From Escherichia coli (GTDB lineage Bacteria > Pseudomonadota > Gammaproteobacteria > Enterobacterales > Enterobacteriaceae): a stretch of 64,000 bases of DNA. Positions within the stretch are counted from its first letter, which is position 1. Every line of letters begins with the position of its first letter. The stretch lies in assembly GCF_044324875.1 (NCBI RefSeq), contig NZ_CP172185.1; one strand, 5' to 3'. The position numbers and the translations under genes were made by a program. The notes beneath the pieces were generated by a model. The model saw only the letters and a list, made by a program, of their open reading frames with translations. It searched no databases and was not told the DNA's origin. This document shows, in pieces, positions 2,902 to 22,038 of the stretch.

Positions 2902-3702
2902 AGCTGGGGGACTGGTATCTTTCAGCTCACTGATTTTGTTGCTGAACCTGATATATCCTTCGGTTTTCCACAACCAGGGGAAGGGTGTCATCATAAGGCG
3001 TGATGACACCCTGAATTCCCATCCTGTATCTGCAGAAAATTTTTCGTAAATAAATTAATTTAATAACTAAAAAGAAAATACAATAAGCAAAATATCAATT
3101 ACAGCATGTTCGTTTGTTTAAAGAACCTGCTGGTCCTGCCATTAATATTACCTGCTGATTGCTTCACATCCGGATTCCTCGCACTGCGCGCGGGTTATTG
3201 TTTCGTTTTCGGCCACGGGGTCGCCAGGGCTCTGTTTGCAGGCCATGATGGCCTGACCTGTACTGTTTCTCAGGCACTGAGATGTCCGTTTACGCCATTT
3301 GTTCCCGGATATCCTTAACCTCTGACGTTTGTTCCCTGCCCCTCTGTCTGATAACGAATACGCTCACAACGCACAGTACTGAACAATACCGACAACAACA
3401 TGTCTTACATGAAATTCGCTGTAACATCCACCGGAAAACATTTTCAGATATCGGATGAGGTACTACTTCCATTGACAGCGCGAGGTAACAAAATTGATGG
3501 TAACTCTGACCATTAACCGTAAACCGCAGGGTATTTTCAGTAAATCACCGGCAACGCCGCTGCAGGATAAAACGGACACAGCATACAAAATGAAGGCCGG
3601 TGACCAGATACCACAGTTGAACGATAAACAGAAACCTGCTGATAAAACACCGTGGCGACATGACAAAACGCCAGAGCAAAAACCGTAAGCGCATTATTCG
3701 TC

Positions 3703-4005
3703 TTGTGGAACTCTGGCCTGAGTCATTCAACCGGGAAAAAAACAAAACCACTTAAAGTGGGGATACCTGACGACCTGATACAGGATATCGCCATCCGAGA
3801 ACTGGCGTTTGGCGCTGGTACATTACATGCAGCAGTGGCGTCTTATGTGCAGTCTCCGTGCTATTACCGTGCGTTAATAGCAGGTGGCGCCCGTTACAAC
3901 CTGAACGGTCAGCCGTGCGGGGAAGTGACACCACAGGAACAGAAAGAGGCAGAGACCCGTTTAATGATGCTGAATGACCGACGAAAAGACAGAAAACCTC
4001 GTTGA
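3703..4005 (+). CDS. FinO/ProQ-like RNA-binding domain protein (possibly frameshifted with upstream ORF 3494..3688)
   Basis: KPLKVGIPDDLIQDIA...YNLNGQPCGEVTPQEQKEAETRL resembles the ProQ N-terminal FinO domain (RPLKIGIFQDL...DLDGNPCGELDEQ); track start is TTG. Confidence 0.4.
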   Translation: MWNSGLSHSTGKKTKPLKVGIPDDLIQDIAIRELAFGAGTLHAAVASYVQSPCYYRALIAGGARYNLNGQPCGEVTPQEQKEAETRLMMLNDRRKDRKPR

Positions 4006-4022
4006 CTGCACAACAGCGCTGT

Positions 4023-4619
4023 TCACTGAGCTGTAATCAATGTACAGCGCTGTACCGGGCGATGGGTAATACCGGTCACAACCGGTAACCCCAGAGACAA
4101 TGCAACTGTTTTTAACGCAATATACTGGCCGGATGTATCACCCCGGGCAGCCTGAAAACACCTTTCCACCCGGCATTGTCCGTCAGCACTTATCACCCGC
4201 CATGTCTGTTGCAATAAATCCACCCGTTGCGAACATTCTTCATCAACCGTGGCACTGACCCGTGGATGGCAAATGCTCGTCTGGCTGAGCAGCAACAGGC
4301 ATCGCATTGTTGCTCCTCCATGTTGTTCCCGCAACCAGCGTAATACCACCGGTGGTGCTGGACTGGCCGTGTGATTACGTTCAGTAATACGCTCGTGCAC
4401 CTGTCGGTAAAAGGAAGTACAGAATGCATGAATCTGTTGTCCGTTGATGTTTCCTTCTGCCGAATGGAGCGTGAAGTGAAATGCCAACAGATTTGGCCAG
4501 TGGTCCACCGCCTGCTGAACAAAACGCCGGATTTCCCCCGGCGCTGAAAGTAAGGCTTCGGTTATTTGCACTATTTTATCCCCGTTGAATTTTGTTAAGC
4601 CGGTGCAGACCAGACACAC
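4023..4619 (-). CDS. Inovirus Gp2-family (YagK/YfjJ-like) protein, paralog 1
   Basis: 198 aa; same overall architecture as the two downstream paralogs (LAFHFTLH ... MRCLLLLSQT). Confidence 0.45.
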   Translation of the reverse strand: MCLVCTGLTKFNGDKIVQITEALLSAPGEIRRFVQQAVDHWPNLLAFHFTLHSAEGNINGQQIHAFCTSFYRQVHERITERNHTASPAPPVVLRWLREQHGGATMRCLLLLSQTSICHPRVSATVDEECSQRVDLLQQTWRVISADGQCRVERCFQAARGDTSGQYIALKTVALSLGLPVVTGITHRPVQRCTLITAQ

Positions 4620-4848: not shown

Positions 4849-5085
4849 TCATGCTGCTGCTCCTCGTGATTCCTCAATTCGCTGCTGCATCCACTGCTCC
4901 ACTTCACTTTTGTACCAGCGGCTGCTGCGCCCCAGTTTGATGGGTTTAGGGAAATGGCCTTCACTGATCAGCTTGTAAAACCATTTGTCGGTCATACCAG
5001 TGAAGCTGGTGATGTAGTTCATGTCGATCAGGGGATCGTCGGCACGCAGCAATACGCTGTCGTGACCTGTCATTGAGGTCAACAT
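4849..5085 (-). CDS. alpA: AlpA-family phage/island transcriptional regulator
   Basis: 78 aa; MNYITSFTGMTDKWFYKLISEGHFPKPIKLGRSSRWYKSEVEQWM is the AlpA HTH signature. Confidence 0.8.
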   Translation of the reverse strand: MLTSMTGHDSVLLRADDPLIDMNYITSFTGMTDKWFYKLISEGHFPKPIKLGRSSRWYKSEVEQWMQQRIEESRGAAA

Positions 5086-5153: not shown

Positions 5154-5756
5154 TCAGAGCTGGCCTGCTACGGGATACCAGGGATTACCGGCGAGGTAAC
5201 GGGCTTCCGGATCGCGCACACCACGACGATCGCGGGCGAAATCACTGAACGCCCATATCAGCTCTTTGAGTCTCTCTTCGCAGTCCGGTGAACAACTGTC
5301 CAGCACCACATCCCGGGTTATCTGTTTCTGGTACGGTGCTGCTTCACCCGGTGACGCGAAGCCCAGTACGTTGCTCCAGGCATCCAGAATCAACCGGTCC
5401 AGCTCAGGGCCGTCGAAATATTCCTGTCTGACGCACAGCACCACGTGGTATTCCGGTTTTTCAGGATGACGGGTCAGGAGCCAGCAGAGGTCGCGTCCGG
5501 GGGTTGCATTCATCAGCGCACTGACGGTTTCGATAAAGGCCATACCGAACCAGGTTTTTCTGTCGCTGAAGATGTTGCCATGTTCCCCCGGCAGACGAAG
5601 CAGGATCCGCCGTATCCTGGAGCCGGACTGCTCGCGCAACACACGGTTGAGAACGCCGATGATTTTGTTCTGATAAGATGGCCAGAAGGGCGCCATGCTA
5701 TAGTCGAAATAAGGGATAGCATTCATAAGATATGTTCCGTTATACGCAGCCCACAA
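5154..5756 (-). CDS. Inovirus Gp2-family (YfjI/YagK-like) protein, paralog 2
   Basis: 200 aa; island backbone position immediately after alpA. Confidence 0.55.
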   Translation of the reverse strand: MWAAYNGTYLMNAIPYFDYSMAPFWPSYQNKIIGVLNRVLREQSGSRIRRILLRLPGEHGNIFSDRKTWFGMAFIETVSALMNATPGRDLCWLLTRHPEKPEYHVVLCVRQEYFDGPELDRLILDAWSNVLGFASPGEAAPYQKQITRDVVLDSCSPDCEERLKELIWAFSDFARDRRGVRDPEARYLAGNPWYPVAGQL

Positions 5757-6082
5757 CGCGTCCTGCCCGTGGATGCGCTGACGTGTTATGGCTTGCGTAT
5801 GGGGTTGATGGAATAAGTGAAAAACCGCGGCAGAACGGGAAGATCAGGTAACCGACAAGGGACAGAACACCGGATGCAGGTTCAGAATGAATGATCTCCG
5901 TTGACTTCGGTTCACATCATTAAGCAGGACAGTAAGGTTTTACCGACGGAGTGTTTCCAGGAGCGAAAGCAGAGAAAAATACCGTTGCATGACTTCAGGA
6001 CGACTTTTTCAGAAAACGAGCTAAGGGCGTCAGCCAACGTCCTGTAGCATAAGCTCAGGCACCGGATGTCGTTTTACAGGGC

Positions 6083-6814
6083 TCACCTGCCATCCAGCAG
6101 ACGCCCCGGCCCACGACTGCAACCATAATTACGTTGCCCGGAACCGTCATGCTGCTTCGTCTCATATTTCACGAGATAACTGGCTCTGTTCCGGGCTTTC
6201 TGCAGCGCTTCCACATCACCACGCTTGATCCAGAGAACAGCGGCTTCACCCGGCTTTTTTTCTGAAGCCTTCCTGGTATCAGAACATCCACCCGACAAAG
6301 GCGTGTCATCGGAAGAAGGGCGAGCATCAGACGATGCTGGTTTACGGGAAGGCGTCCACCTGGAAAAATGGACCAGGCCATCGCCTTGCCAGGCCTCAAG
6401 ATGCAGGGCGCTGCACCATGCCTCCAGGATCATCGTCGCCAGCGAAGATGGTTCGCTGAAATCCCCTGGCGAGCACCAGGTATCTTTGTTGAGCAGCAAT
6501 ATCACGTGATAATGTTTCCTGCCTTTTTCCTTGCCAAACTCCCGACACCAGAAATAACGCAGAGTGGTTGCACGCACACGCTTGTTGGCACGTCGTTTTT
6601 TCCGCTGGTAAGCCTGGATTTTGGCTTTCAGGGATTCGAAAAAACGAGAAATCACCGCTGAATCCGGATCGGGATCCATGATGGTGACAGGCATATACTC
6701 AGGGAAACGTAAATCCACCCGGATTAACGAGACGGCACGGTGCTGCGACAGGGCACTGTCGAGAAGGCTGTCAAAACGGGATAACCAGTAAGCATTGTGT
6801 ATTGGTTGATTCAT
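6083..6814 (-). CDS. Inovirus Gp2-family (YfjJ/YagK-like) protein, paralog 3
   Basis: 243 aa; LIRVDLRFPEY ... HYHVILLLNKD pattern. Confidence 0.6.
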   Translation of the reverse strand: MNQPIHNAYWLSRFDSLLDSALSQHRAVSLIRVDLRFPEYMPVTIMDPDPDSAVISRFFESLKAKIQAYQRKKRRANKRVRATTLRYFWCREFGKEKGRKHYHVILLLNKDTWCSPGDFSEPSSLATMILEAWCSALHLEAWQGDGLVHFSRWTPSRKPASSDARPSSDDTPLSGGCSDTRKASEKKPGEAAVLWIKRGDVEALQKARNRASYLVKYETKQHDGSGQRNYGCSRGPGRLLDGR

Positions 6815-6849
6815 GATGAGAGATCTCCGTTGATTTGGATTGACTTCAC

Positions 6850-8390
6850 ATCATTAATCACCGCGGTAAAACTTTACGGCATCATGTCATTAAGCAATGC
6901 TACAACTCTCTGATTAAGAGTGATTGAAACGGAACAAACCATCCCGGAACGAAAAGATAATCCTGCACACAGCAGCAAAACACGCAACAACAGCATGAAT
7001 GGATTTAAAAACGACATGGACGACGAGAAAAGCCTGAAGGGAAAAGGATCCACAGAACATTCGAACAAAACACCAGAAACGCAACCAGAACGCTTCCTGG
7101 CAATGCAAATCAACAACAACGCCAAAACCTACAGCTTAATCACACAACTCAATCACGAATGCGAATGACACGTTTAAAACCTGTTTACAGATAACGCCGT
7201 AACACGATCATCCCCATCACCATCAGAATCGATTTTCTCATCCCGAAAATGTTACGTTTCACTACGCACCATAAAAACGATTAACCATCGATAACGTAAA
7301 TCTCATCTGAATCAAAAAACCAAAACCAATCATCACACTTTCGCAATGCAAGAAGAAAAACCACATCATGACGAAAACAATGACCTTACATGAAAAAGCA
7401 AAACGTCAGGAATCGTTAATGCCTCAATCTGATTGTTATCAAAACATCCAGAAAGTCGTTTAACAGAATCGTCGTAAGCACATCGAAAAGAACGTCAGAT
7501 CACCTCAGGAAAGTTCGGGTTGATTTAGCGTAAAGATACTTTTCTCAGCTTAACGTCGAAACACAAACCAAAAACCACAAACAACCAAAGCTCAGGAAAG
7601 GTTAAACGTCACATCAGTAAAATCGAATAGCAGATTGATTGCTTAAACAGGAAAGATTGTTTTACAGCAGCATTAAACTGATTTAGTTAACGTAAAATCA
7701 GAACTGACAGGTTTACTAACTTGGATGTGTATCAGTTCAAAAATGTGTACAGCAATGCGTAATGAAACACATTTAAAGGAGATTAATGGGAAAAGTGTGT
7801 AAATGCGTAAACATGCACTAATGAATCACTGAAGGAATACATACAAAACGACTTAATGAAAACATAAAAGGACCTAATGGAAAAGGTGTATATAATACCA
7901 TATCCGACATTCTCAACATCTTAAGACATCCATGCAGACTGAATGTTGGTTTCAGTTTTTCACGGTAAGCATGAATCTTTTCTGTTCAAAAGCAGAGCAG
8001 ATTTACTCTGGAATTATTTTTCTTACTCCGTATTCTGTACAGCAAAAACTTGTGCTAACTTTACAGCAAACCATCATAATCAGCGTCTGTAGTCCCATCG
8101 CTTTACCCCATGAAAGTGAATCCATATGATGTGAGAGAGATAAGTCATCGTATCCGGTAAACACTGCTTACTATAACATAAGATCATTCAGTCAGTTTTA
8201 TCTCTGAACTGACGATTATGGCATGCTCATTTATATGGCTCACAGAGGAGTGTTATTATCCGTAAGCTTTAATCATCAAATCACATGACCATACCAAACT
8301 GGCGCTATATCAGCTCATTTGACGCTCATTCCCTTTAGATTTCTTTATGTGTTTTTTGTCGATAATTAAAATGTAATATAAATTTAATAT
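6850..8390. other. About 1.5 kb ORF-poor, strand-skewed (A+C-rich top strand) intergenic region with recurrent short motifs
   Basis: No ORF of 60 aa or more on either strand between about 7170 and 7930; recurring AACGT(C/A)A..ATC, TCAGGAAAG and TAATGRA motifs. Confidence 0.6.
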
Positions 8391-8397
8391 TTTCACA

Positions 8398-9621
8398 TCA
8401 TAAACACCATTTAAAACCATCATCCTGAACATCATACAACAATATATTTTTACTAAAGCATGAATTGTATATTTCTATTAATTCAGGAAAATTATCAGGA
8501 TTCACCTTTAAATTCAACTGAATGTTACACTTAATTTCACTCAGCAGTTCTTCATGCGTGGATTTTATTATCCCTTTATCATAATCTATAAATACACACA
8601 TGTTTTTCATGAATTCAAACCCTTTTCCTGTATACAGTTTGATGAATGCCACAAGAGCAAACATTTCAAGATGCAGCCATAATGCCACGTGAGTTTTTCG
8701 CAAAGTATAAAAAATTGAATTCGCCACTTTTTTACTTATTGCTCTTTTGTACTGTGAGTGCGCCAGATTCAGTAGTGGCAATTCTCTCTCGATAAATGAA
8801 AGTGAAAAAGGCGGGTAAATTGATGTCGGAAATATTTCAGGTCTTATGATATTTTCGATTTCCACCATAAATCTATCCATAGAACGAAAATCATTTTCTT
8901 TTTTTATTCTGGTATAGAGACCGCCTTTATTCCTTACTGCGACTTTTTTTCGTGCTATCCCCCCCAACATTTCCTCTAATTGTTTATTTATCTTCGTATC
9001 ATTAAATACAACCATTCTTCTTATCATCCTGGGAAGGATGATAATATCAGAGCTTGAATCACTTGAACGGCAATTATTATTGATCCATGCAACTTCAAGT
9101 TGAAGTATCGGAACATTAAATTCTCTGGGGTTAATAACTCTCTGATATTGTTTTTTGTATGCGTTTTCATTAAGATATTCTCTGCTGTAGAGAAACTTAT
9201 AGCAATATAATCTGACAATATCCTTTATGTAAGATTTAAATGAGTCACCTGTAACAGATATATTTTTTCTTCTCAGTAACTCCTGTGTATTGAGCCATTC
9301 CCGTGACCGGAGTACTCCATTATGAAGACTTTTTCTTACTTGCTTTGAATTGCGCAATTGATGTAATATTTTTGCGTCCTCAACAATTCTCTTTCCCGTT
9401 TGATTTCTTGCAGCATCTATTACTCTGTCAAATATCTCCCGGTCCAGACTTTTGTCATATTTACTGATTATACGACAAATATTCCTGACCCGACGGTTCT
9501 CTTTATTTCGTTTCCATAACTGATAATGATCATCACATAACCTCAGGGCATTTGCCTCATCAAATTCTGAAACAGGATTGCTGCATTTTTTATTCCGACA
9601 GATACCTTTGTTTTTAGCCAT
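8398..9621 (-). CDS. Hypothetical protein, 407 aa, low-GC orphan
   Basis: Long ATG-initiated ORF with purine-rich SD; Lys/Arg/Asn-rich; N-terminal Cys-x4-Cys ... Cys-x2-His; no family recognised. Confidence 0.6.
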   Translation of the reverse strand: MAKNKGICRNKKCSNPVSEFDEANALRLCDDHYQLWKRNKENRRVRNICRIISKYDKSLDREIFDRVIDAARNQTGKRIVEDAKILHQLRNSKQVRKSLHNGVLRSREWLNTQELLRRKNISVTGDSFKSYIKDIVRLYCYKFLYSREYLNENAYKKQYQRVINPREFNVPILQLEVAWINNNCRSSDSSSDIIILPRMIRRMVVFNDTKINKQLEEMLGGIARKKVAVRNKGGLYTRIKKENDFRSMDRFMVEIENIIRPEIFPTSIYPPFSLSFIERELPLLNLAHSQYKRAISKKVANSIFYTLRKTHVALWLHLEMFALVAFIKLYTGKGFEFMKNMCVFIDYDKGIIKSTHEELLSEIKCNIQLNLKVNPDNFPELIEIYNSCFSKNILLYDVQDDGFKWCL

Positions 9622-9721
9622 ACTCTTCTTCCCGTCAATGGAAAAATTTTCACGTCCATATTACCTGACTGAGAGGCCGGATTAATGTGATCCGGTTCAG
9701 TGAAATCAACAGGATAACGGT

Positions 9722-10606
9722 ATGTCATTCAGCCATTCTTCCCTCTCCGCACACGTAAAGTCACATCTGACCTTTCTTCCTGAAGAAATTCGCCAGAAAA
9801 TCCTTGAACATCTTCGCAGCGTCATTCAGTACGAACCCGTTATTGGCATTATGGGTAAATCCGGTGCCGGAAAAAGCAGCCTGTGCAATGCCATTTTTCA
9901 GTCCCGTGTCTGCGCCACGCATCCGCTGAACGGCTGCACCCGTCAGGCTCATCGTCTTACCTTTCAGCCCGGTGAACGAAGAATGACGCTGGTCGATCTG
10001 CCCGGCACTGGCGAAACACCACAGCATGATCAGGAATACCGGGCACTTTACAGTCAGTTACTGCCCGAACTGGATCTGATTATCTGGATCCTGCGGGCTG
10101 ATGAACGTGCGTATGCTGCCGACATCGCCATGCATCAGTTTTTACTGAATGAAGGTGCCGATCCCTCGCGTTTTCTGTTTGTTCTCAGCCATGCCGATCG
10201 CATCCACCCGGCTGAAGAATGGAACAACCAGAGCAGCACGCCATCCCGTCAGCAGGAACTCTCACTGGCGACGGTGACAGCCCGGGTGGCAACCCTGTTC
10301 CCTTCATCATTTCCGGTACTCCCCATAGCCGCTCCTGCCGGCTGGAATCTTCCGGCATTTGTGTCTCTGATGATCCACGCCCTGCCACCACAGGCAACCA
10401 GCGCGGTTTATTCGCATATCCGGAATGAAAAGCGCACTGCGCAGGATCAGCAACACGCACAGCAGGCTTTTGGTGACGCCATCGGCCAGAGTTTTGACGC
10501 TGCCATTGCCCGGTTCAGCTTTCCGGCCTGGATGCTGCAGCTTCTGCGCAAAGCCCGTGATCGCATTATCCGCCTGCTGATCACACTGTGGGATCGCCTG
10601 TTCTGA
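9722..10606 (+). CDS. YeeP/YfjP-family GTPase (50S ribosome-binding GTPase-like)
   Basis: 294 aa; P-loop GIMGKSGAGKSS and DLPGTGE switch motif. Confidence 0.85.
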   Translation: MSFSHSSLSAHVKSHLTFLPEEIRQKILEHLRSVIQYEPVIGIMGKSGAGKSSLCNAIFQSRVCATHPLNGCTRQAHRLTFQPGERRMTLVDLPGTGETPQHDQEYRALYSQLLPELDLIIWILRADERAYAADIAMHQFLLNEGADPSRFLFVLSHADRIHPAEEWNNQSSTPSRQQELSLATVTARVATLFPSSFPVLPIAAPAGWNLPAFVSLMIHALPPQATSAVYSHIRNEKRTAQDQQHAQQAFGDAIGQSFDAAIARFSFPAWMLQLLRKARDRIIRLLITLWDRLF

Positions 10607-10791
10607 ATGTCCCCGCTTTTTGACCGGCCCCGGCGATAACCAGGAAACGCATTTCCGGTTGCGTCACCACAATGCTGAAGGGCTTCGGTAAACCCTCATT
10701 CATTTCATCCATCAGGCCGCGTCTTCTCCGTGAGACGCGGCTTTTTCATTGATTACGTCATTCAGTCTTAACCACTGATAAGGAGCAAAGT

Positions 10792-11610
10792 ATGCGATTA
10801 GCCAGTCGTTTTGGTTATGCGAACCAGATACGCCGTGACCGTCCGCTGACCCGTGAAGAGCTGATGCACCATGTGCCCGGGATTTTCGGGGAAGATAAAC
10901 ACACCTCCCGGAGCCGGAACTATACATACATCCCCACCATCACCGTGCTGGAAAGCCTGCAGCGGGAAGGCTTTCAGCCATTCTTCGCCTGCCAGACCCG
11001 CGTACGTGACCCGGGTCGCCGGGGGTATACCAAACACATGCTGCGTCTGCGCCGTGACGGGGAGATAAACGGACAACATGTCCCTGAAATTATTCTGCTC
11101 AACTCTCATGACGGTACCTCCAGCTACCAGATGCTGCCGGGTTACTTCAGGTTCGTCTGCCAGAACGGATGCGTCTGCGGTCAGTCTCGGGGGGAAGTGC
11201 GTGTTCCGCACCGGGGAAATGTGGTGGACAGAGTCATTGAAGGGGCTTACGAGGTGGTGGGCGTGTTTGACCGGATAGAGGAGAAGCGTGATGCCATGCA
11301 GTCGCTGGTCCTGCCGCCACCGGCACGCCAGGCGCTGGCACAGGCGGCACTGACTTACCGTTATGGTGACGAACATCAGCCCGTCACCACCGCCGACATT
11401 CTGACACCACGACGCCGGGAGGATTACGGTAAGGACCTGTGGAGTGCTTATCAGACCATCCAGGAGAATATGCTGAAAGGCGGGATTTCCGGTCGCAGTG
11501 CAAAAGGAAAACGTATCCATACCCGGGCCATTCACAGCATTGATACCGATATAAAACTCAACCGCGCATTGTGGGTGATGGCAGAAACGCTGCTGGAGAG
11601 CATGCGCTGA
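10792..11610 (+). CDS. DUF932-family protein (YfjQ/YafZ-like)
   Basis: 272 aa; position after the GTPase gene as in CP4-type islands. Confidence 0.7.
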   Translation: MRLASRFGYANQIRRDRPLTREELMHHVPGIFGEDKHTSRSRNYTYIPTITVLESLQREGFQPFFACQTRVRDPGRRGYTKHMLRLRRDGEINGQHVPEIILLNSHDGTSSYQMLPGYFRFVCQNGCVCGQSRGEVRVPHRGNVVDRVIEGAYEVVGVFDRIEEKRDAMQSLVLPPPARQALAQAALTYRYGDEHQPVTTADILTPRRREDYGKDLWSAYQTIQENMLKGGISGRSAKGKRIHTRAIHSIDTDIKLNRALWVMAETLLESMR

Positions 11611-18111: not shown

Positions 18112-18476
18112 GTAACTCCCGGGTTGATTTATGCTCGGGAATATTTGTTGTTGAGTTTTTGTATGTTCCTGTTGGTATAATATGTTGCGGCAATTTATTT
18201 GCCGCATAATTTTTATCACATAAATTTAACCAGGAAATATCCCGCAATCCATTGTAAACATTGAATGTTTATCTTTTCATGATATCAACTTGCGATCCTG
18301 ATGTGTTAATAAAAAACCTCAAGTTCTCACTTACAGAAACTTTTGTGTTATTTCACCTAATCTTTAGGATTAATCCTTTTTTCGTGAGTATTCTTAGCGC
18401 CAGTTTGGTCTGGTCAGGAAATAGTTATACATCATGACCCGGACTCCAAATTCAAAAATGAAATTAGGAGAAGAGC
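18112..18476 (+). promoter_or_regulatory. cadBA promoter region (Pcad, CadC-binding region)
   Basis: Intergenic cadC-cadB; assigned from known locus organisation, individual sites not resolved. Confidence 0.45.
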
Positions 18477-19811
18477 ATGAGTTCTGCCAAGAAGATCGGG
18501 CTATTTGCCTGTACCGGTGTTGTTGCCGGTAATATGATGGGGAGCGGTATTGCATTATTACCTGCGAACCTAGCAAGTATCGGTGGTATTGCTATCTGGG
18601 GTTGGATTATCTCTATTATTGGTGCAATGTCGCTGGCGTATGTATATGCCCGACTGGCAACAAAAAACCCGCAACAAGGTGGCCCAATTGCTTATGCCGG
18701 AGAAATTTCCCCTGCATTTGGTTTTCAGACAGGTGTTCTTTATTACCATGCTAACTGGATTGGTAACCTGGCGATTGGTATTACCGCTGTATCTTATCTT
18801 TCCACCTTCTTCCCAGTATTAAATGATCCTGTTCCGGCGGGTATCGCCTGTATTGCTATCGTCTGGGTATTTACCTTTGTAAATATGCTCGGCGGTACCT
18901 GGGTAAGCCGTTTAACCACTATTGGTCTGGTGCTGGTTCTTATTCCTGTGGTAATGACTGCTATTGTTGGCTGGCATTGGTTTGATGCTGCGACTTATGC
19001 TGCTAACTGGAATACTGCGGATACCACCGATGGTCATGCGATCATTAAAAGTATTCTGCTCTGCCTGTGGGCCTTCGTGGGTGTTGAATCCGCAGCTGTA
19101 AGTACTGGTATGGTTAAAAACCCGAAACGTACCGTTCCGCTGGCAACCATGCTGGGTACTGGTTTAGCAGGTATTGTTTATATCGCTGCGACTCAGGTGC
19201 TTTCCGGTATGTATCCGTCTTCTGTAATGGCAGCTTCCGGTGCTCCGTTTGCAATCAGTGCTTCAACTATCCTCGGTAATTGGGCTGCGCCGCTGGTTTC
19301 TGCATTCACCGCCTTTGCGTGCCTGACCTCTCTGGGCTCCTGGATGATGTTGGTAGGCCAGGCAGGTGTACGTGCCGCTAACGACGGTAACTTCCCGAAA
19401 GTTTATGGTGAAGTCGACAGCAACGGTATTCCGAAAAAAGGTCTGCTGCTGGCTGCAGTGAAAATGACTGCCCTGATGATCCTCATCACTCTGATGAACT
19501 CTGCCGGTGGTAAAGCATCTGACCTGTTCGGTGAACTGACCGGTATCGCAGTACTGCTGACTATGCTGCCGTACTTCTACTCTTGCGTTGACCTGATTCG
19601 TTTTGAAGGCGTTAACATCCGCAACTTTGTCAGCCTGATCTGCTCTGTACTGGGTTGCGTGTTCTGCTTCATCGCGCTGATGGGCGCAAGCTCCTTCGAG
19701 CTGGCAGGTACCTTCATCGTCAGCCTGATTATCCTGATGTTCTACGCTCGCAAAATGCACGAGCGCCAGAGCCACTCAATGGATAACCACACAGCGTCTA
19801 ACGCACATTAA
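18477..19811 (+). CDS. cadB: Lysine:cadaverine antiporter
   Basis: 444 aa APC-family transporter matching CadB. Confidence 0.95.
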   Translation: MSSAKKIGLFACTGVVAGNMMGSGIALLPANLASIGGIAIWGWIISIIGAMSLAYVYARLATKNPQQGGPIAYAGEISPAFGFQTGVLYYHANWIGNLAIGITAVSYLSTFFPVLNDPVPAGIACIAIVWVFTFVNMLGGTWVSRLTTIGLVLVLIPVVMTAIVGWHWFDAATYAANWNTADTTDGHAIIKSILLCLWAFVGVESAAVSTGMVKNPKRTVPLATMLGTGLAGIVYIAATQVLSGMYPSSVMAASGAPFAISASTILGNWAAPLVSAFTAFACLTSLGSWMMLVGQAGVRAANDGNFPKVYGEVDSNGIPKKGLLLAAVKMTALMILITLMNSAGGKASDLFGELTGIAVLLTMLPYFYSCVDLIRFEGVNIRNFVSLICSVLGCVFCFIALMGASSFELAGTFIVSLIILMFYARKMHERQSHSMDNHTASNAH

Positions 19812-19890
19812 TTAAAAGTATTTTCCGAGGCTCCTCCTTTCATTTTGTCCCATGTGTTGGGAGGGGCCTTTTTTACCTGGAGATATGACT

Positions 19891-22038
19891 ATGAACGTTA
19901 TTGCAATATTGAATCACATGGGGGTTTATTTTAAAGAAGAACCCATCCGTGAACTTCATCGCGCGCTTGAACGTCTGAACTTCCAGATTGTTTACCCGAA
20001 CGACCGTGACGACTTATTAAAACTGATCGAAAACAATGCGCGTCTGTGCGGCGTTATTTTTGACTGGGATAAATATAATCTCGAGCTGTGCGAAGAAATT
20101 AGCAAAATGAACGAGAACCTGCCGTTGTACGCGTTCGCTAATACGTATTCCACTCTCGATGTAAGCCTGAATGACCTGCGTTTACAGATTAGCTTCTTTG
20201 AGTATGCGCTGGGTGCTGCTGAAGATATTGCTAATAAGATCAAGCAGACCACTGACGAATATATCAACACTATTCTGCCTCCGCTGACTAAAGCACTGTT
20301 TAAATATGTTCGTGAAGGTAAATATACTTTCTGTACTCCTGGTCACATGGGCGGTACTGCATTCCAGAAAAGCCCGGTAGGTAGCCTGTTCTATGATTTC
20401 TTTGGTCCGAACACCATGAAATCTGATATTTCCATTTCAGTATCTGAACTGGGTTCTCTGCTGGATCACAGTGGTCCACACAAAGAAGCAGAACAGTATA
20501 TCGCTCGCGTCTTTAACGCAGACCGCAGCTACATGGTGACCAACGGTACTTCCACTGCGAACAAAATTGTTGGTATGTACTCTGCTCCGGCAGGCAGCAC
20601 CATTCTGATTGACCGTAACTGCCACAAATCGCTGACCCACCTGATGATGATGAGCGATGTTACGCCAATCTATTTCCGCCCGACCCGTAACGCTTACGGT
20701 ATTCTTGGTGGTATCCCACAGAGTGAATTCCAGCACGCTACCATTGCTAAGCGTGTGAAAGAAACACCAAACGCAACCTGGCCGGTACATGCCGTAATTA
20801 CTAACTCTACCTATGATGGTCTGCTGTACAACACCGACTTCATCAAGAAAACACTGGATGTGAAATCCATCCACTTTGACTCCGCGTGGGTGCCTTACAC
20901 CAACTTCTCACCGATTTACGAAGGTAAATGCGGTATGAGCGGTGGCCGTGTAGAAGGGAAAGTGATTTACGAAACCCAGTCCACTCACAAACTGCTGGCG
21001 GCGTTCTCTCAGGCTTCCATGATCCACGTTAAAGGTGACGTAAACGAAGAAACCTTTAACGAAGCCTACATGATGCACACCACCACTTCTCCGCACTACG
21101 GTATCGTGGCGTCCACTGAAACCGCTGCGGCGATGATGAAAGGTAATGCTGGTAAGCGTCTGATCAACGGTTCCATTGAACGTGCGATCAAATTCCGTAA
21201 AGAGATCAAACGCCTGAGAACGGAATCTGATGGCTGGTTCTTTGATGTATGGCAGCCGGATCATATCGATACGACTGAATGCTGGCCGCTGCGTTCTGAC
21301 AGCACCTGGCACGGCTTCAAAAACATCGATAACGAGCACATGTATCTTGACCCGATCAAAGTCACCCTGCTGACTCCGGGGATGGAAAAAGACGGCACCA
21401 TGAGCGACTTTGGTATTCCGGCCAGCATCGTGGCGAAATACCTCGACGAACATGGCATCGTTGTTGAGAAAACCGGTCCGTATAACCTGCTGTTCCTGTT
21501 CAGCATCGGTATCGATAAGACCAAAGCACTGAGCCTGCTGCGTGCTCTGACAGACTTCAAACGTGCGTTCGATCTGAACCTGCGTGTGAAAAACATGCTG
21601 CCGTCTCTGTATCGTGAAGATCCTGAATTCTATGAAAACATGCGTATTCAGGAACTGGCTCAGAATATCCACAAACTGATTGTTCACCACAATCTGCCGG
21701 ATCTGATGTATCGCGCATTTGAAGTTCTGCCGACCATGGTAATGACTCCGTATGCTGCGTTCCAGAAAGAGCTGCACGGTATGACCGAAGAAGTTTACCT
21801 CGACGAAATGGTAGGTCGTATTAACGCCAATATGATCCTTCCGTATCCGCCGGGAGTTCCTCTGGTAATGCCGGGTGAAATGATCACCGAAGAAAGCCGT
21901 CCGGTTCTGGAGTTCCTGCAGATGCTGTGTGAAATCGGCGCTCACTATCCGGGCTTTGAAACCGATATTCACGGTGCATACCGTCAGGCTGATGGCCGCT
22001 ATACCGTTAAGGTATTGAAAGAAGAAAGCAAAAAATAA
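19891..22038 (+). CDS. cadA: Inducible lysine decarboxylase
   Basis: Start trimmed to MNVIAILNHMGVYF; 715 aa. Confidence 0.95.
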   Translation: MNVIAILNHMGVYFKEEPIRELHRALERLNFQIVYPNDRDDLLKLIENNARLCGVIFDWDKYNLELCEEISKMNENLPLYAFANTYSTLDVSLNDLRLQISFFEYALGAAEDIANKIKQTTDEYINTILPPLTKALFKYVREGKYTFCTPGHMGGTAFQKSPVGSLFYDFFGPNTMKSDISISVSELGSLLDHSGPHKEAEQYIARVFNADRSYMVTNGTSTANKIVGMYSAPAGSTILIDRNCHKSLTHLMMMSDVTPIYFRPTRNAYGILGGIPQSEFQHATIAKRVKETPNATWPVHAVITNSTYDGLLYNTDFIKKTLDVKSIHFDSAWVPYTNFSPIYEGKCGMSGGRVEGKVIYETQSTHKLLAAFSQASMIHVKGDVNEETFNEAYMMHTTTSPHYGIVASTETAAAMMKGNAGKRLINGSIERAIKFRKEIKRLRTESDGWFFDVWQPDHIDTTECWPLRSDSTWHGFKNIDNEHMYLDPIKVTLLTPGMEKDGTMSDFGIPASIVAKYLDEHGIVVEKTGPYNLLFLFSIGIDKTKALSLLRALTDFKRAFDLNLRVKNMLPSLYREDPEFYENMRIQELAQNIHKLIVHHNLPDLMYRAFEVLPTMVMTPYAAFQKELHGMTEEVYLDEMVGRINANMILPYPPGVPLVMPGEMITEESRPVLEFLQMLCEIGAHYPGFETDIHGAYRQADGRYTVKVLKEESKK

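What the first reader, a model, noticed from the sequence alone, without database searches (positions are those of the whole stretch)
6815..9721. Cargo sits in the slot that holds defence genes in K-12 CP4-57
The backbone order alpA, Gp2-like, Gp2-like, [cargo], YeeP-like GTPase, DUF932, KlcA, RadC-like, YeeT-like, antitoxin, toxin parallels K-12 CP4-57, where the equivalent slot between yfjJ and yfjP carries yfjK, yfjL and rnlAB. Here that slot holds the orphan ORF and a long non-coding stretch, so it is the place in the window most likely to hold an uncharacterised accessory or defence module.
Basis: inference. Interest (0 to 1): 0.7.

Follow-up and report, generated by a model that had tools for sequence, protein, structure and literature searches.

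The report
Polymorphic core gene, not island cargo
The interval is not a cargo bay: it is a fixed part of a genomic island found in about a third of E. coli genomes, made of a long non-coding spacer plus an uncharacterised zinc-ribbon protein that looks like a disabled HNH nuclease and occurs in three swappable, very divergent versions.

Summary
Window 6815-9721 contains a 407-aa orphan ORF (8398-9621, minus strand) and about 1.58 kb without a gene, between a Gp2/YfjJ-family gene and a YfjP-like GTPase gene.

The "cargo/defence slot" reading does not hold. Of 5426 complete E. coli genomes, 1875 carry this GTPase allele group, 1877 carry the non-coding stretch and 1871 carry the divergent intergenic region. 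Every copy examined has a member of one protein family next to the GTPase.

That gene sits in a sharply bounded 1.6-kb cassette (8021-9646). The cassette has three deeply divergent allele classes: 407 aa, 376 aa, and about 316-320 aa with or without a small RHH ORF.

The family is tiny and enterobacterial, with no Pfam, NCBIfam or PADLOC match and no similar known fold. It has an N-terminal CCCH zinc ribbon. Distant members keep an HNH signature that is lost here (W179, R201). The gene is under purifying selection (dN/dS 0.27) and lies within two genes of alpA in every context examined.

The spacer is length-conserved, evolves fast, and shows no coding or structured-RNA signal.

Most likely this is a non-catalytic DNA-binding specificity factor of the island's own control circuit. 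That function is inferred, not shown. Variable cargo lies on the other side of the Gp2 gene.

The parts
6083..6814 (-). Gp2/YfjJ-family (HUH Rep-like) gene; left flank of the interval and conserved backbone
   Evidence: It is 31% identical to K-12 YfjJ and 36% to a Klebsiella REP_ORF2-G2P protein. PGAP names it 'inovirus Gp2 family protein'. Mean pairwise nucleotide identity is 93% among 8 islands. dN/dS is 0.25-0.46.
6807..6860 (.). 15-nt inverted repeat (6807-6821 / 6846-6860) bracketing the Gp2 start codon and RBS, inside a nearly invariant block (6810-6877)
   Evidence: The arms are 87% complementary. Runs of invariant columns cover 6810-6823, 6825-6838, 6840-6855 and 6863-6877 in 8 islands. 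The only fold z-score in the interval that stands out is here, at -2.8 on the + strand for 6700-6899. A role as operator or translational hairpin is inferred.
6815..8020 (.). Conserved non-coding spacer upstream of the Gp2 gene; AT-rich, with the + strand rich in A and C
   Evidence: It matches in 1877 of 5426 genomes. Identity is 68-84%, against 93% for the adjacent CDS. Total spacer length stays at 1463-1750 nt and the base skews are preserved. Indels are not multiples of 3. There is no Rfam match at E<=1, no stable fold and no tandem repeats. The PGAP small ORF at 6995-7168 is broken in 5 of 8 homologues.
7506..7655 (+). Three direct copies of CAGGAAAG (7506, 7593, 7648); a possible protein-binding repeat
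   Evidence: Three of the 6 occurrences in the 64-kb window fall within these 150 nt, where 1.7 are expected for the whole window. The motif was chosen post hoc. Only the third copy is invariant in the 4-way alignment.
8021..9646 (.). Replaceable low-GC cassette: the family gene plus its own 3' non-coding tail and 25 nt of leader
   Evidence: blastn breakpoints fall at the same two positions in 6 islands that carry other alleles. The junctions are sharp...GAATTATTTT | and | TTTTCACG....
8021..8397 (.). Cassette-specific non-coding tail downstream of the ORF
   Evidence: It is alignable only among 407-type islands and unrelated in 376- and 316-type islands.
8398..9621 (-). 407-aa protein of an orphan family: CCCH zinc ribbon (C8, C13, C29, H32), central beta-beta-alpha core (175-218) with HNH residues lost (W179, R201), and a C-terminal helical domain with a YNSxFS motif (385-390)
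   Evidence: The ORF is listed. The AF2 model has pLDDT 83 and pTM 0.71. dN/dS is 0.26-0.29. It is intact in 967 genomes.
9622..9721 (.). Divergent control region shared with the GTPase gene. 9647-9721 is conserved across all allele classes and contains the palindrome CCGGAT-N7-ATCCGG (9677-9695)
   Evidence: The sequence is shown. The last 75 nt match at 89-93% in genomes that lack the 407-aa allele. Promoter or operator function is inferred.
9722..10606 (+). YfjP/YeeP-like MMR_HSR1 GTPase; right flank and conserved neighbour
   Evidence: NCBIfam gives Era/Der/YsxC-like P-loop hits. There is a weak PADLOC LeoBC hit at 3.8e-07. It is 68% identical to the Citrobacter neighbour, 53% to the Klebsiella neighbour and 35% to K-12 YfjP. 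dN/dS is 0.21-0.23.

Best explanation
The interval is a backbone segment of a widespread E. coli integrative island, not a cargo bay. It has three parts.

1. A 1.2-kb non-coding, AT-rich spacer lies upstream of the Gp2-family gene. Its length is conserved but its sequence evolves fast.
2. A sharply bounded 1.6-kb low-GC cassette carries one gene of an orphan enterobacterial family. The protein has an N-terminal CCCH zinc ribbon, a central beta-beta-alpha core that descends from an HNH nuclease but has lost the catalytic His and Asn residues in all E. coli alleles, and a C-terminal helical domain.
3. A conserved 75-100-bp divergent control region with a palindrome is shared with the YfjP-like GTPase gene.

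The cassette exists in at least three allele classes, with as little as 23% amino-acid identity between those compared (407- vs 376-aa). They have been shuffled by recombination among otherwise about 88-99% identical backbones.

Inferred mechanism: the protein is a non-catalytic nucleic-acid-binding factor of the island's own AlpA/Gp2 (excision and replication control) circuit. It would be expressed from the shared control region. The allele classes would be specificity ("immunity-like") types that keep the several related islands in one genome from cross-talking.

Shown: the anatomy, the distribution, the mosaic structure, purifying selection and the loss of the HNH residues. Inferred: DNA binding, the link to AlpA/Gp2 control and the meaning of the alleles.

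My confidence by step is about 0.85 for "backbone, polymorphic core gene", about 0.65 for "inactivated HNH derivative" and about 0.3 for the functional role.
For: Fixed and widespread:
- 1875, 1877 and 1871 of 5426 genomes carry the GTPase allele group, the spacer and the intergenic region respectively.
- The allele census gives 967 genomes for the 407-aa class, 459-463 for the 376-aa class and 741 for the ~320-aa class. By subtraction of place counts, the three classes about account for all ~2500 places.
- All alleles hit the family profile: the 376-aa allele at E 4.7e-95 and the 320-aa allele at E 7.7e-20.

Mosaic structure:
- The breakpoints are identical and sharp at 8020/8021 and 9646/9647.
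- GTPase alleles do not cluster by cassette type. The AB_24 (407-type) and eco-241 (316-type) GTPases are 98.0% identical.

Real gene: dN/dS is 0.27, against 0.22 for the GTPase and 0.25-0.46 for Gp2.

HNH ancestry:
- The distant clade has invariant H157, P160, G165, N167, N171, P176 and N180.
- These align in register with colicin E9 'ELHHDKPISQGG' and with SpCas9 H840/N854/N863.
- There are weak hits to the Cas9d and IscB HNH regions.
- AFDB names some members 'HNH endonuclease'.
- The model has strand-strand-helix at 175-218.
- The window protein has W179 and R201 at the His and Asn positions.

Island-core context: the gene is within two genes of alpA in every context examined (window, L002, L003, L006, L015, L016, L017/18, L023/24). 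The order family gene, spacer, Gp2, AlpA, orf198 recurs in L023 and L024.
Against: - No experiment or database annotation gives a function.
- DNA binding is inferred only from the zinc ribbon and the dead nuclease core.
- The HNH link rests on motif-level matches with weak statistics: hhalign E 0.08-0.23, NCBIfam E 0.003-0.06, Pfam HNH_4 0.013 in one of 32 members.
- Deeply divergent alleles in a conserved backbone, low GC, and a neighbouring NTPase and antirestriction genes are equally typical of conflict (defence or anti-defence) genes.
- Several copies of the same allele class can occur in one genome, up to 6 places. This weakens the "avoid cross-talk" idea.
- No binding sites have been identified.
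Confidence: 0.5

Rival explanations
1. The family gene and the adjacent YfjP-like GTPase form a two-gene conflict module, either anti-phage defence or anti-defence. The hypervariable zinc-ribbon/HNH-derived protein would be the specificity or sensor part and the conserved GTPase the switch or effector.
For: - The gene is adjacent to the GTPase in E. coli (all alleles), Citrobacter, Klebsiella and L006.
- Alleles diverge to as little as 23% identity (407- vs 376-aa) in an ~88-99% identical backbone.
- GC content is low, 33-35% for the 407- and 376-aa alleles (about 43-44% for the ~316-320-aa class).
- The family has nuclease ancestry.
- The GTPase has a weak LeoBC (Eleos) match at 3.8e-07.
- Neighbouring genes are antirestriction, RadC and TA genes.
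Against: - No allele matches any PADLOC model.
- The HNH catalytic residues are lost in every E. coli allele.
- The gene is present in every copy of the island lineage rather than sporadically.
- HNH-intact relatives in L015, L016 and L017 have no GTPase neighbour, and L023/L024 have none within 8 kb.
- GTPase alleles do not co-vary with cassette type.
Confidence: 0.2
2. One reading: the interval is a variable integration hot spot, and the ORF plus spacer are strain-specific accessory cargo analogous to abpAB/rnlAB in K-12 CP4-57.
For: - In K-12 the yfjJ-yfjP interval does hold defence genes.
- More distant GTPase-paralog islands have unrelated genes upstream of the GTPase.
- Part of the interval is swapped between islands.
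- An optional 176-aa ORF replaces 7002-7301 in some strains.
Against: - The content is the same family plus the same spacer in about 35% of genomes.
- The same position is occupied in other genera at 31-37% identity.
- CP4-57 belongs to a distant lineage, with 35% GTPase identity and no family member.
- Variable genes in sister islands lie to the left of the Gp2 gene.
Confidence: 0.05
3. The long non-coding stretch is the cis-acting origin or nick region (ori or oriT) for the Gp2-family HUH protein, analogous to the intergenic region upstream of gene II in Ff phages. The family protein would be an accessory factor there.
For: - The stretch lies directly upstream of the Gp2-family gene.
- Its length is kept at 1.46-1.75 kb despite 60-85% identity.
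- Gp2-like genes in other genera also follow long gene-free gaps: about 830 nt in L023, and 354 and 373 nt in Citrobacter and Klebsiella.
- The Ff analogy comes from established knowledge, not from a test here.
Against: - Only 5 weak local inverted repeats were found, and no iterons or tandem repeats.
- Fold z-scores lie within about +/-1.6 on both strands apart from single outliers (-2.8 at 6700-6899 on +, +2.2 at 7300-7499 on -).
- The region evolves faster than the flanking CDS, and only 10-15-nt blocks are invariant.
- It is almost absent from plasmids, with 4 records.
Confidence: 0.15
4. The ORF is a functionless, decaying remnant, and the spacer is junk DNA kept only by hitch-hiking.
For: - There is no annotation or domain hit.
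- The catalytic motif is lost.
- Neighbouring genes are often pseudogenes (ProQ/FinO, CbtA, IS elements) in E41.
Against: - dN/dS is 0.27, like its neighbours.
- The full-length ORF is kept in 967 genomes, and the other alleles in more than 1100 further genomes.
- Seventy-seven columns are invariant across 32-37%-identical homologues from other genera.
- The AF2 model is confident.
Confidence: 0.05

Closest known systems
HNH (beta-beta-alpha-Me) endonuclease superfamily, e.g. colicin E9 DNase and the Cas9/IscB HNH domain
   Same: Distant family members keep the H...N...N signature in register with colicin E9 and with SpCas9 H840/N854/N863. They also give weak hits to the Cas9d and IscB HNH regions. 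The window protein models as strand-strand-helix at the same place.
K-12 CP4-57 interval yfjJ - abpB/abpA/yfjM - rnlAB - yfjP
   Same: Both intervals lie between a YfjJ/Gp2-family gene and a YfjP-type GTPase, followed by DUF932, antirestriction, RadC-like and TA genes.
   Different: K-12 carries defence cargo there and no family member. The GTPases are only 35% identical. The alpA/YfjJ arm has the opposite orientation. Here the content is lineage-fixed.
Integrase-AlpA-Gp2-RadC genomic islands, such as the tmRNA islands of Pseudomonas (PMC12595487)
   Same: They share a core gene set (integrase, AlpA, an inovirus Gp2-like protein, RadC) with many unannotated core ORFs and separate cargo regions.
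   Different: That paper does not mention a GTPase or DUF932. Whether those islands carry this zinc-ribbon family was not checked. It covers a different genus and integration site.
Septu-type NTPase + HNH defence pairs (PtuA/PtuB)
   Same: Both pair an NTPase gene with an HNH-derived gene. This resemblance is recalled from knowledge of Septu and was not tested beyond PADLOC.
   Different: The NTPase here is an Era-like GTPase, not an AAA15/21 ATPase. The HNH is inactivated, there are no PADLOC Septu hits, and the genes are divergent rather than in an operon.
Mosaic immunity regions of temperate phages (allelic repressor/operator cassettes)
   Same: Deeply divergent homologous alleles, each with its own adjacent non-coding DNA, are exchanged at sharp boundaries within a conserved backbone.
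   Different: There is no HTH repressor and no demonstrated operators. Regulatory function is not shown.

Membership tests
HNH endonuclease (beta-beta-alpha-Me) | Two beta-strands followed by an alpha-helix forming the metal finger | tested here: met
   The AF2 model (pLDDT 83) has strands at 175-179 and 193-197 and a helix at 198-218. This is a prediction, not a solved structure.
HNH endonuclease (beta-beta-alpha-Me) | Catalytic His at the end of strand 1 | tested here: not met
   The window protein has W179 where the HNH-motif clade has an invariant His (LE.CH). The 376-aa allele has Glu and the 320-aa allele has Gln.
HNH endonuclease (beta-beta-alpha-Me) | Asn/His metal ligand on the helix, plus the loop Asn | tested here: not met
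   R201 replaces the invariant Asn of INR. The PNS.GG.N loop is replaced by NNNCRSSDSSSD.
HNH endonuclease (beta-beta-alpha-Me) | Significant match to an HNH profile | tested here: not met
   The window protein has no Pfam or NCBIfam hit. Among 32 family members the best HNH_4 hit is E 0.013 in one. Distant members hit the Cas9d/IscB HNH regions at E 0.003-0.06.
Known anti-phage defence system (PADLOC-DB 2.0) | Protein matches a defence-system HMM | tested here: not met
   The 407-aa protein and 8 proteins from the other slot variants (allele genes and their companion ORFs) match no family. Only the GTPase gives a weak LeoBC hit.
Known anti-phage defence system (PADLOC-DB 2.0) | Confers phage resistance | not testable with these tools
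   This needs plaque assays.
Variable cargo slot / integration hot spot | Unrelated gene content at the same position in closely related islands | tested here: not met
   The position always holds the same family plus the same spacer. Only allele swapping and an optional 176-aa or RHH ORF vary.
Structured non-coding RNA (Rfam) | Match to a covariance model, or a fold more stable than shuffles | tested here: not met
   There is no Rfam match at E<=1 in 5500-11000. z-scores lie within about +/-1.6 across 6900-8400 (one window, 7300-7499 on the - strand, at +2.18, i.e. less stable than shuffles).
Protein-coding gene in 6815-8397 | Conserved ORF, with indels in multiples of three | tested here: not met
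   Indels of 1, 4, 5, 8, 10, 19 and 25 nt occur. The PGAP ORF is disrupted in 5 of 8 homologues. tblastn finds no remnants of island proteins.
Rolling-circle origin upstream of a Gp2/gpII-type gene | Conserved hairpins or iterons and a nick site | tested here: inconclusive
   No strong hairpins, iterons or tandem repeats were found. A short nick site could not be recognised without a known consensus.

The most novel reading that the evidence does not exclude
The swappable zinc-ribbon/dead-HNH cassette, together with the conserved GTPase and their shared palindromic control region, is a previously unrecognised polymorphic conflict or island-immunity system. It would be carried by a third of E. 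coli genomes. The allele classes would be maintained by balancing or diversifying selection, for example by recognising different invading DNAs, or by excluding related islands.
Probability: 0.15. Interest if true: 0.65.

Novelty: new variant of a known kind. Interest (0 to 1): 0.33.

Why it matters
As a lead for defence-system discovery, this interval should be downgraded. It is island backbone, and the variable cargo in this lineage lies on the other side of the Gp2 gene.

What remains of interest is modest but real. A protein family with no domain annotation sits in about 35% of complete E. coli genomes. It appears to be an HNH nuclease turned into a non-catalytic protein. It comes in three cassette alleles, with as little as 23% identity between those compared (407- vs 376-aa), exchanged at identical breakpoints. 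It is accompanied by a 1.5-kb non-coding spacer, which is unusually long for a length-conserved bacterial intergenic region.

Working out its role could show how these very common CP4-57-like islands, whose core genes are almost all of unknown function, control their own excision, replication or coexistence.

Tried and rejected
- **Domain and family searches on the 407-aa protein.** Pfam, NCBIfam, PADLOC and PHROGs gave nothing usable.
- **PDB sequence profiles.** Searches with A1 and A4 gave nothing.
- **Non-coding stretch.** Rfam found nothing on 5500-11000. I also tried a promoter/terminator scan (fewer promoter-like sites than in shuffles), repeats, tandem repeats, sliding-window RNA fold z-scores on both strands, and tblastn for decayed alpA, Gp2, yfjI, yfjM or RHH genes. 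None gave a positive signal.
- **Small ORFs.** The PGAP small ORF at 6995-7168, and the 35-aa hydrophobic ORF at 7262-7369 on the minus strand, were considered and rejected because they are not conserved.
- **Plasmid collection.** The spacer occurs in only 4 records and the protein in none.
- **The search for related loci.** Alignment A1 returned only 2 loci.
- **Literature searches.** Searches on yfjP/yeeP, the DUF932/RadC/CbtA island module, YagK/YfjJ/Gp2/AlpA and CP4-57 hot spots found no description of this gene or spacer.
- **Co-variation of GTPase alleles with cassette type.** I looked for it and found none.
Full report
**1. The observation**

The interval 6815-9721 is a low-GC patch (30-39% GC) between flanks of 52-57% GC. 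It contains one long ORF, 8398-9621 on the minus strand (407 aa). The stretch 6815-8397 (1583 nt) has no ORF longer than 83 aa.

- The left arm is an AlpA-like gene (4849-5085, -) and two YagK/YfjJ/Gp2-like genes (5154-5756 and 6083-6814, both -).
- To the right is an Era-like MMR_HSR1 GTPase (9722-10606, +).
- DUF932, antirestriction, RadC, DUF987, CbeA and CbtA follow, as annotated in the 99.9%-identical strain E41.

K-12 CP4-57 does carry abpB(yfjK), abpA(yfjL), yfjM and rnlAB between yfjJ and yfjP. Two qualifications apply. The alpA/Gp2 arm is inverted relative to K-12. The window GTPase is only 35% identical to YfjP, so the two islands are distant cousins.

**2. Is the slot variable?**

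In this island lineage it is not. Among 5426 complete E. coli genomes:
- the GTPase allele group is present at >=80% coverage in 1875 genomes;
- the non-coding stretch matches in 1877, in 2573 places;
- the 8398-9721 query matches in 1871, in 2501 places.

In 967 genomes the 407-aa gene is present at about 91% identity. In the rest, only the last 75 nt match, which is the part of the divergent intergenic region next to the GTPase.

I examined twelve sister islands in annotated form. Each shows the same layout: Gp2 gene, 1.46-1.75 kb without a conserved gene, one gene on the minus strand, then the GTPase.

**3. A swappable cassette inside a fixed frame**

Pairwise blastn of window 6000-10700 against nine islands shows conserved backbone at 6000-8020 and 9647-10606. 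The segment 8021-9646 aligns only in islands with the 407-aa allele. The junctions are sharp and identical in all alleles...TTTACTCTGGAATTATTTT | and | TTTTCACG(T/C)CCATATTACC....

Other islands carry different genes in this segment.
- Some have a 376-aa gene, found in 459-463 genomes.
- Others have a 310-320-aa gene, found in 741 genomes and several subtypes. It often has a convergent 262-284-aa ORF whose C-terminus weakly resembles CopB/RepA2-type RHH regulators.

The 376-aa and 320-aa proteins are members of the same family as the 407-aa protein. They score E 4.7e-95 and 7.7e-20 against the family profile, although the 407- and 376-aa proteins share only 23% identity. The place counts, 516 and 818 plus roughly 1170 by subtraction, account for the ~2500 places.

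GTPase alleles do not cluster by cassette type. A 407-type island and a 316-type island have GTPases that are 98.0% identical. The cassettes have therefore been shuffled by recombination in the flanks.

The gene is polymorphic but never absent, and it is always the same family. In sister islands the strain-specific genes lie to the left of the Gp2 gene: a TIR-domain protein, a restriction endonuclease, ireA and yfjI.

**4. The protein**

It has no Pfam, NCBIfam or PADLOC match and only a chance-level PHROG hit. The family is very small.
- 16 clusters were found among 5.8 billion proteins.
- 43 representatives at E<=0.001 were found among 1.84 billion.
- Only 2 loci were found among the GTDB representative genomes.
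- All named members are Enterobacterales, apart from one record (L024) labelled Chryseobacterium that looks mislabelled or contaminated.

Members from Citrobacter, Klebsiella and Salmonella are 30-37% identical. Nine homologues share 77 invariant columns, including C8, C13, C29 and H32 (a CCCH zinc ribbon), SREW.NTQEL, SREYL, LEV, IRRMV, LPL and YNS.FS.

The gene is under purifying selection. dN/dS is 0.26-0.29, compared with 0.21-0.23 for the GTPase and 0.25-0.46 for Gp2.

A distant clade of the family keeps an HNH signature, LE.CH.YPNS.GG.N...N.IIAP..INR. It comprises 14 representatives, including P0028, P0033 and P0039, at 14-21% identity to the window protein. H157, P160, G165, N167, N171, P176 and N180 are invariant.

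hhalign places this segment in register with colicin E9 'YELHHDKPISQGG', and with SpCas9 so that H157, N171 and N180 fall on H840, N854 and N863. The E-values are weak (0.23 and 0.083).

Three members give weak hits to the Cas9d HNH region and one to the IscB HNH region (E 0.003-0.06). UniProt names some members 'HNH endonuclease'.

In the window protein these positions are W179, a Ser/Asp-rich loop, and R201. The 376-aa and 320-aa alleles have Glu or Gln and Arg at the same positions. I read the family as HNH-derived and the E. coli alleles as catalytically dead. This is an inference from motifs and a predicted fold, with confidence of about 0.65.

**5. Genomic context outside E. coli**

- In Citrobacter (L002) and Klebsiella (L003, L004) the homologue is the divergent neighbour of the GTPase, which is 68% and 53% identical to the window's. 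It is followed by alpA and a Gp2-like gene.
- In L023 and L024 the order is family gene, a gene-free gap of about 830 nt, Gp2-like, AlpA, orf198-like. This is the window's order, but with no GTPase within 8 kb.
- HNH-intact members sit directly after int-(x)-alpA. They are followed by a GTPase (L006), DUF932 (L015), a ParM-like gene (L016) or small ORFs (L017, L018).

The association that holds in every context examined is with alpA, within two genes. The association with the GTPase holds in the window's clade and in one distant member. In the few contexts seen, HNH-intact members lacked a nearby Gp2-like gene and HNH-dead ones had one. The sample is too small to build on.

**6. The non-coding stretch**

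It is non-coding by several tests.
- Indels of 1, 4, 5, 8, 10, 19 and 25 nt separate homologues.
- tblastn with island proteins finds no remnants.
- The small ORF that PGAP annotates (6995-7168) is broken in 5 of 8 homologues.

It evolves faster than the neighbouring CDS. Mean pairwise identity is 68-84% by segment, against 93% for Gp2, and it falls toward the cassette. Its length (1463-1750 nt) and its strand composition are nevertheless kept in all islands. The + strand of 6900-7700 is 41% A and 24% C.

The only long invariant blocks are the 65 nt upstream of the Gp2 start. These include a 15-nt inverted repeat that brackets the start codon.

No signal for an RNA or a repeat-based element was found.
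- There is no Rfam match at E<=1.
- No fold is more stable than shuffles on either strand in 6900-8400.
- There are no tandem repeats and no strong hairpins.

Three CAGGAAAG copies cluster at 7506-7655, but the motif was picked post hoc. In HD12480 and 55989, window 7002-7301 is replaced by about 1.15 kb carrying a 176-aa ORF of unknown function.

I regard the stretch as a long regulatory leader or spacer for the Gp2 gene, possibly silenced or carrying a cis site. Its function is not established.

**7. Mechanism and rivals**

My preferred reading is that the protein is a non-catalytic nucleic-acid-binding factor belonging to the island's own AlpA/Gp2 control circuit. It would be expressed from a control region shared with the GTPase, conserved at 9647-9721 with the palindrome CCGGAT-N7-ATCCGG at 9677-9695. 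The allele classes would act as specificity types.

For this reading: the gene is a core gene, it is linked to alpA everywhere examined, each allele travels with its own non-coding tail, and the promoter side is conserved while the gene is swapped.

Against it: nothing shows DNA binding, and several copies of one allele class can coexist in a genome.

The main rival is a conflict module (defence or anti-defence) formed with the GTPase. It would explain the extreme allele divergence, the low GC content and the neighbourhood of antirestriction genes. It is weakened by the dead nuclease motif, the lack of PADLOC hits, the universal presence of the gene in the lineage, the absence of GTPase co-variation, and relatives without a GTPase neighbour.

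An origin or oriT role for the spacer, and a 'junk' reading, are less likely. The reasons are given under the rival explanations.

**8. Comparison with what is known**

The island class is known: integrase, AlpA, a Gp2-like protein, RadC, antirestriction genes and a TA system. Its core genes are mostly of unknown function (PMC12595487).

The protein works, at most, like a degenerate HNH domain used for binding. It fails the HNH membership test on the catalytic residues and on profile matches. It should not be filed as an HNH endonuclease, even though some database entries for relatives use that name.

The K-12 analogy is positional only.

**9. Verdict**

The finding is ordinary as a cargo or defence lead. 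It is mildly interesting as an unannotated, very common, polymorphic HNH-derived core gene with an unusually long conserved spacer. I score interest at 0.33.

Noticed in passing
window 3494-4082 (+): A ProQ/FinO-family gene is split into two frames (ORFs 3494-3688 and 3703-4005). PGAP marks the same gene as frameshifted in E41, DG342-2 and E24377A. Either the pseudogene is old and widely inherited, or the frameshift is programmed or tolerated.
   Followed up: no
window 6995-7168 (+): PGAP annotates a 57-aa hypothetical protein here in E41 and E24377A (WP_157806645 and WP_012139175). Eco-241 has an 82-aa version. The frame is broken by stops or frameshifts in 5 of 8 homologous islands, so the annotation is probably spurious.
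   Followed up: yes
window 7506-7655 (+): Three exact copies of CAGGAAAG fall within 150 nt. That is half of all occurrences in the 64-kb window, where 1.7 are expected for the whole window. They may be binding sites. Only the third copy is invariant among four islands.
   Followed up: partly
left of the Gp2 gene (window <6083); L021 1641-2345, L022 1563-2441, L019 1-1986, L020 1-1584: In sister islands the genes just beyond the Gp2 gene differ from strain to strain: a TIR-domain protein, a restriction endonuclease, the IreA siderophore receptor and YfjI. That side, not the Gp2-GTPase interval, behaves as the variable cargo and defence position.
   Followed up: partly
L013 3178-4331 and L014 3178-4331 (replacing window 7002-7301): Some islands (HD12480, 55989) carry a ~1.15-kb insert inside the spacer with a 176-aa ORF (WP_001413264 and WP_000778605). 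It has no NCBIfam or PADLOC match.
   Followed up: partly
L014 5820-6674, L019 5192-5980, L020 5251-6060 (+): The ~316-320-aa allele class is accompanied by a convergent 262-284-aa ORF. Its C-terminus weakly matches CopB/RepA2-type replication regulators (E 7e-05 to 0.03), hinting at an RHH DNA-binding partner in that cassette type.
   Followed up: partly
window 9722-10606 (+): The window's GTPase allele is an outlier. It is 87-88% identical to every other sampled island GTPase, which are 93-99.7% identical to each other. At >=99% identity it is found in only 35 records.
   Followed up: partly
L024 (CACSKA010000007.1): A record titled 'Chryseobacterium sp. 18061' carries an enterobacterial-type island segment (family gene, Gp2-like, AlpA at 68% identity to the window's). 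It is nearly the same as the segment in Enterobacteriaceae bacterium RIT691. This suggests a mislabelled or contaminated assembly, or a striking transfer.
   Followed up: no
L001 (strain E41) 18463-20139: In the near-identical E41 island, the antitoxin-like gene, the CbtA toxin, and the DUF5983 and DUF4942 genes are annotated as frameshifted or truncated. The TA end of this island copy seems to be decaying. I did not check this in the window itself.
   Followed up: no
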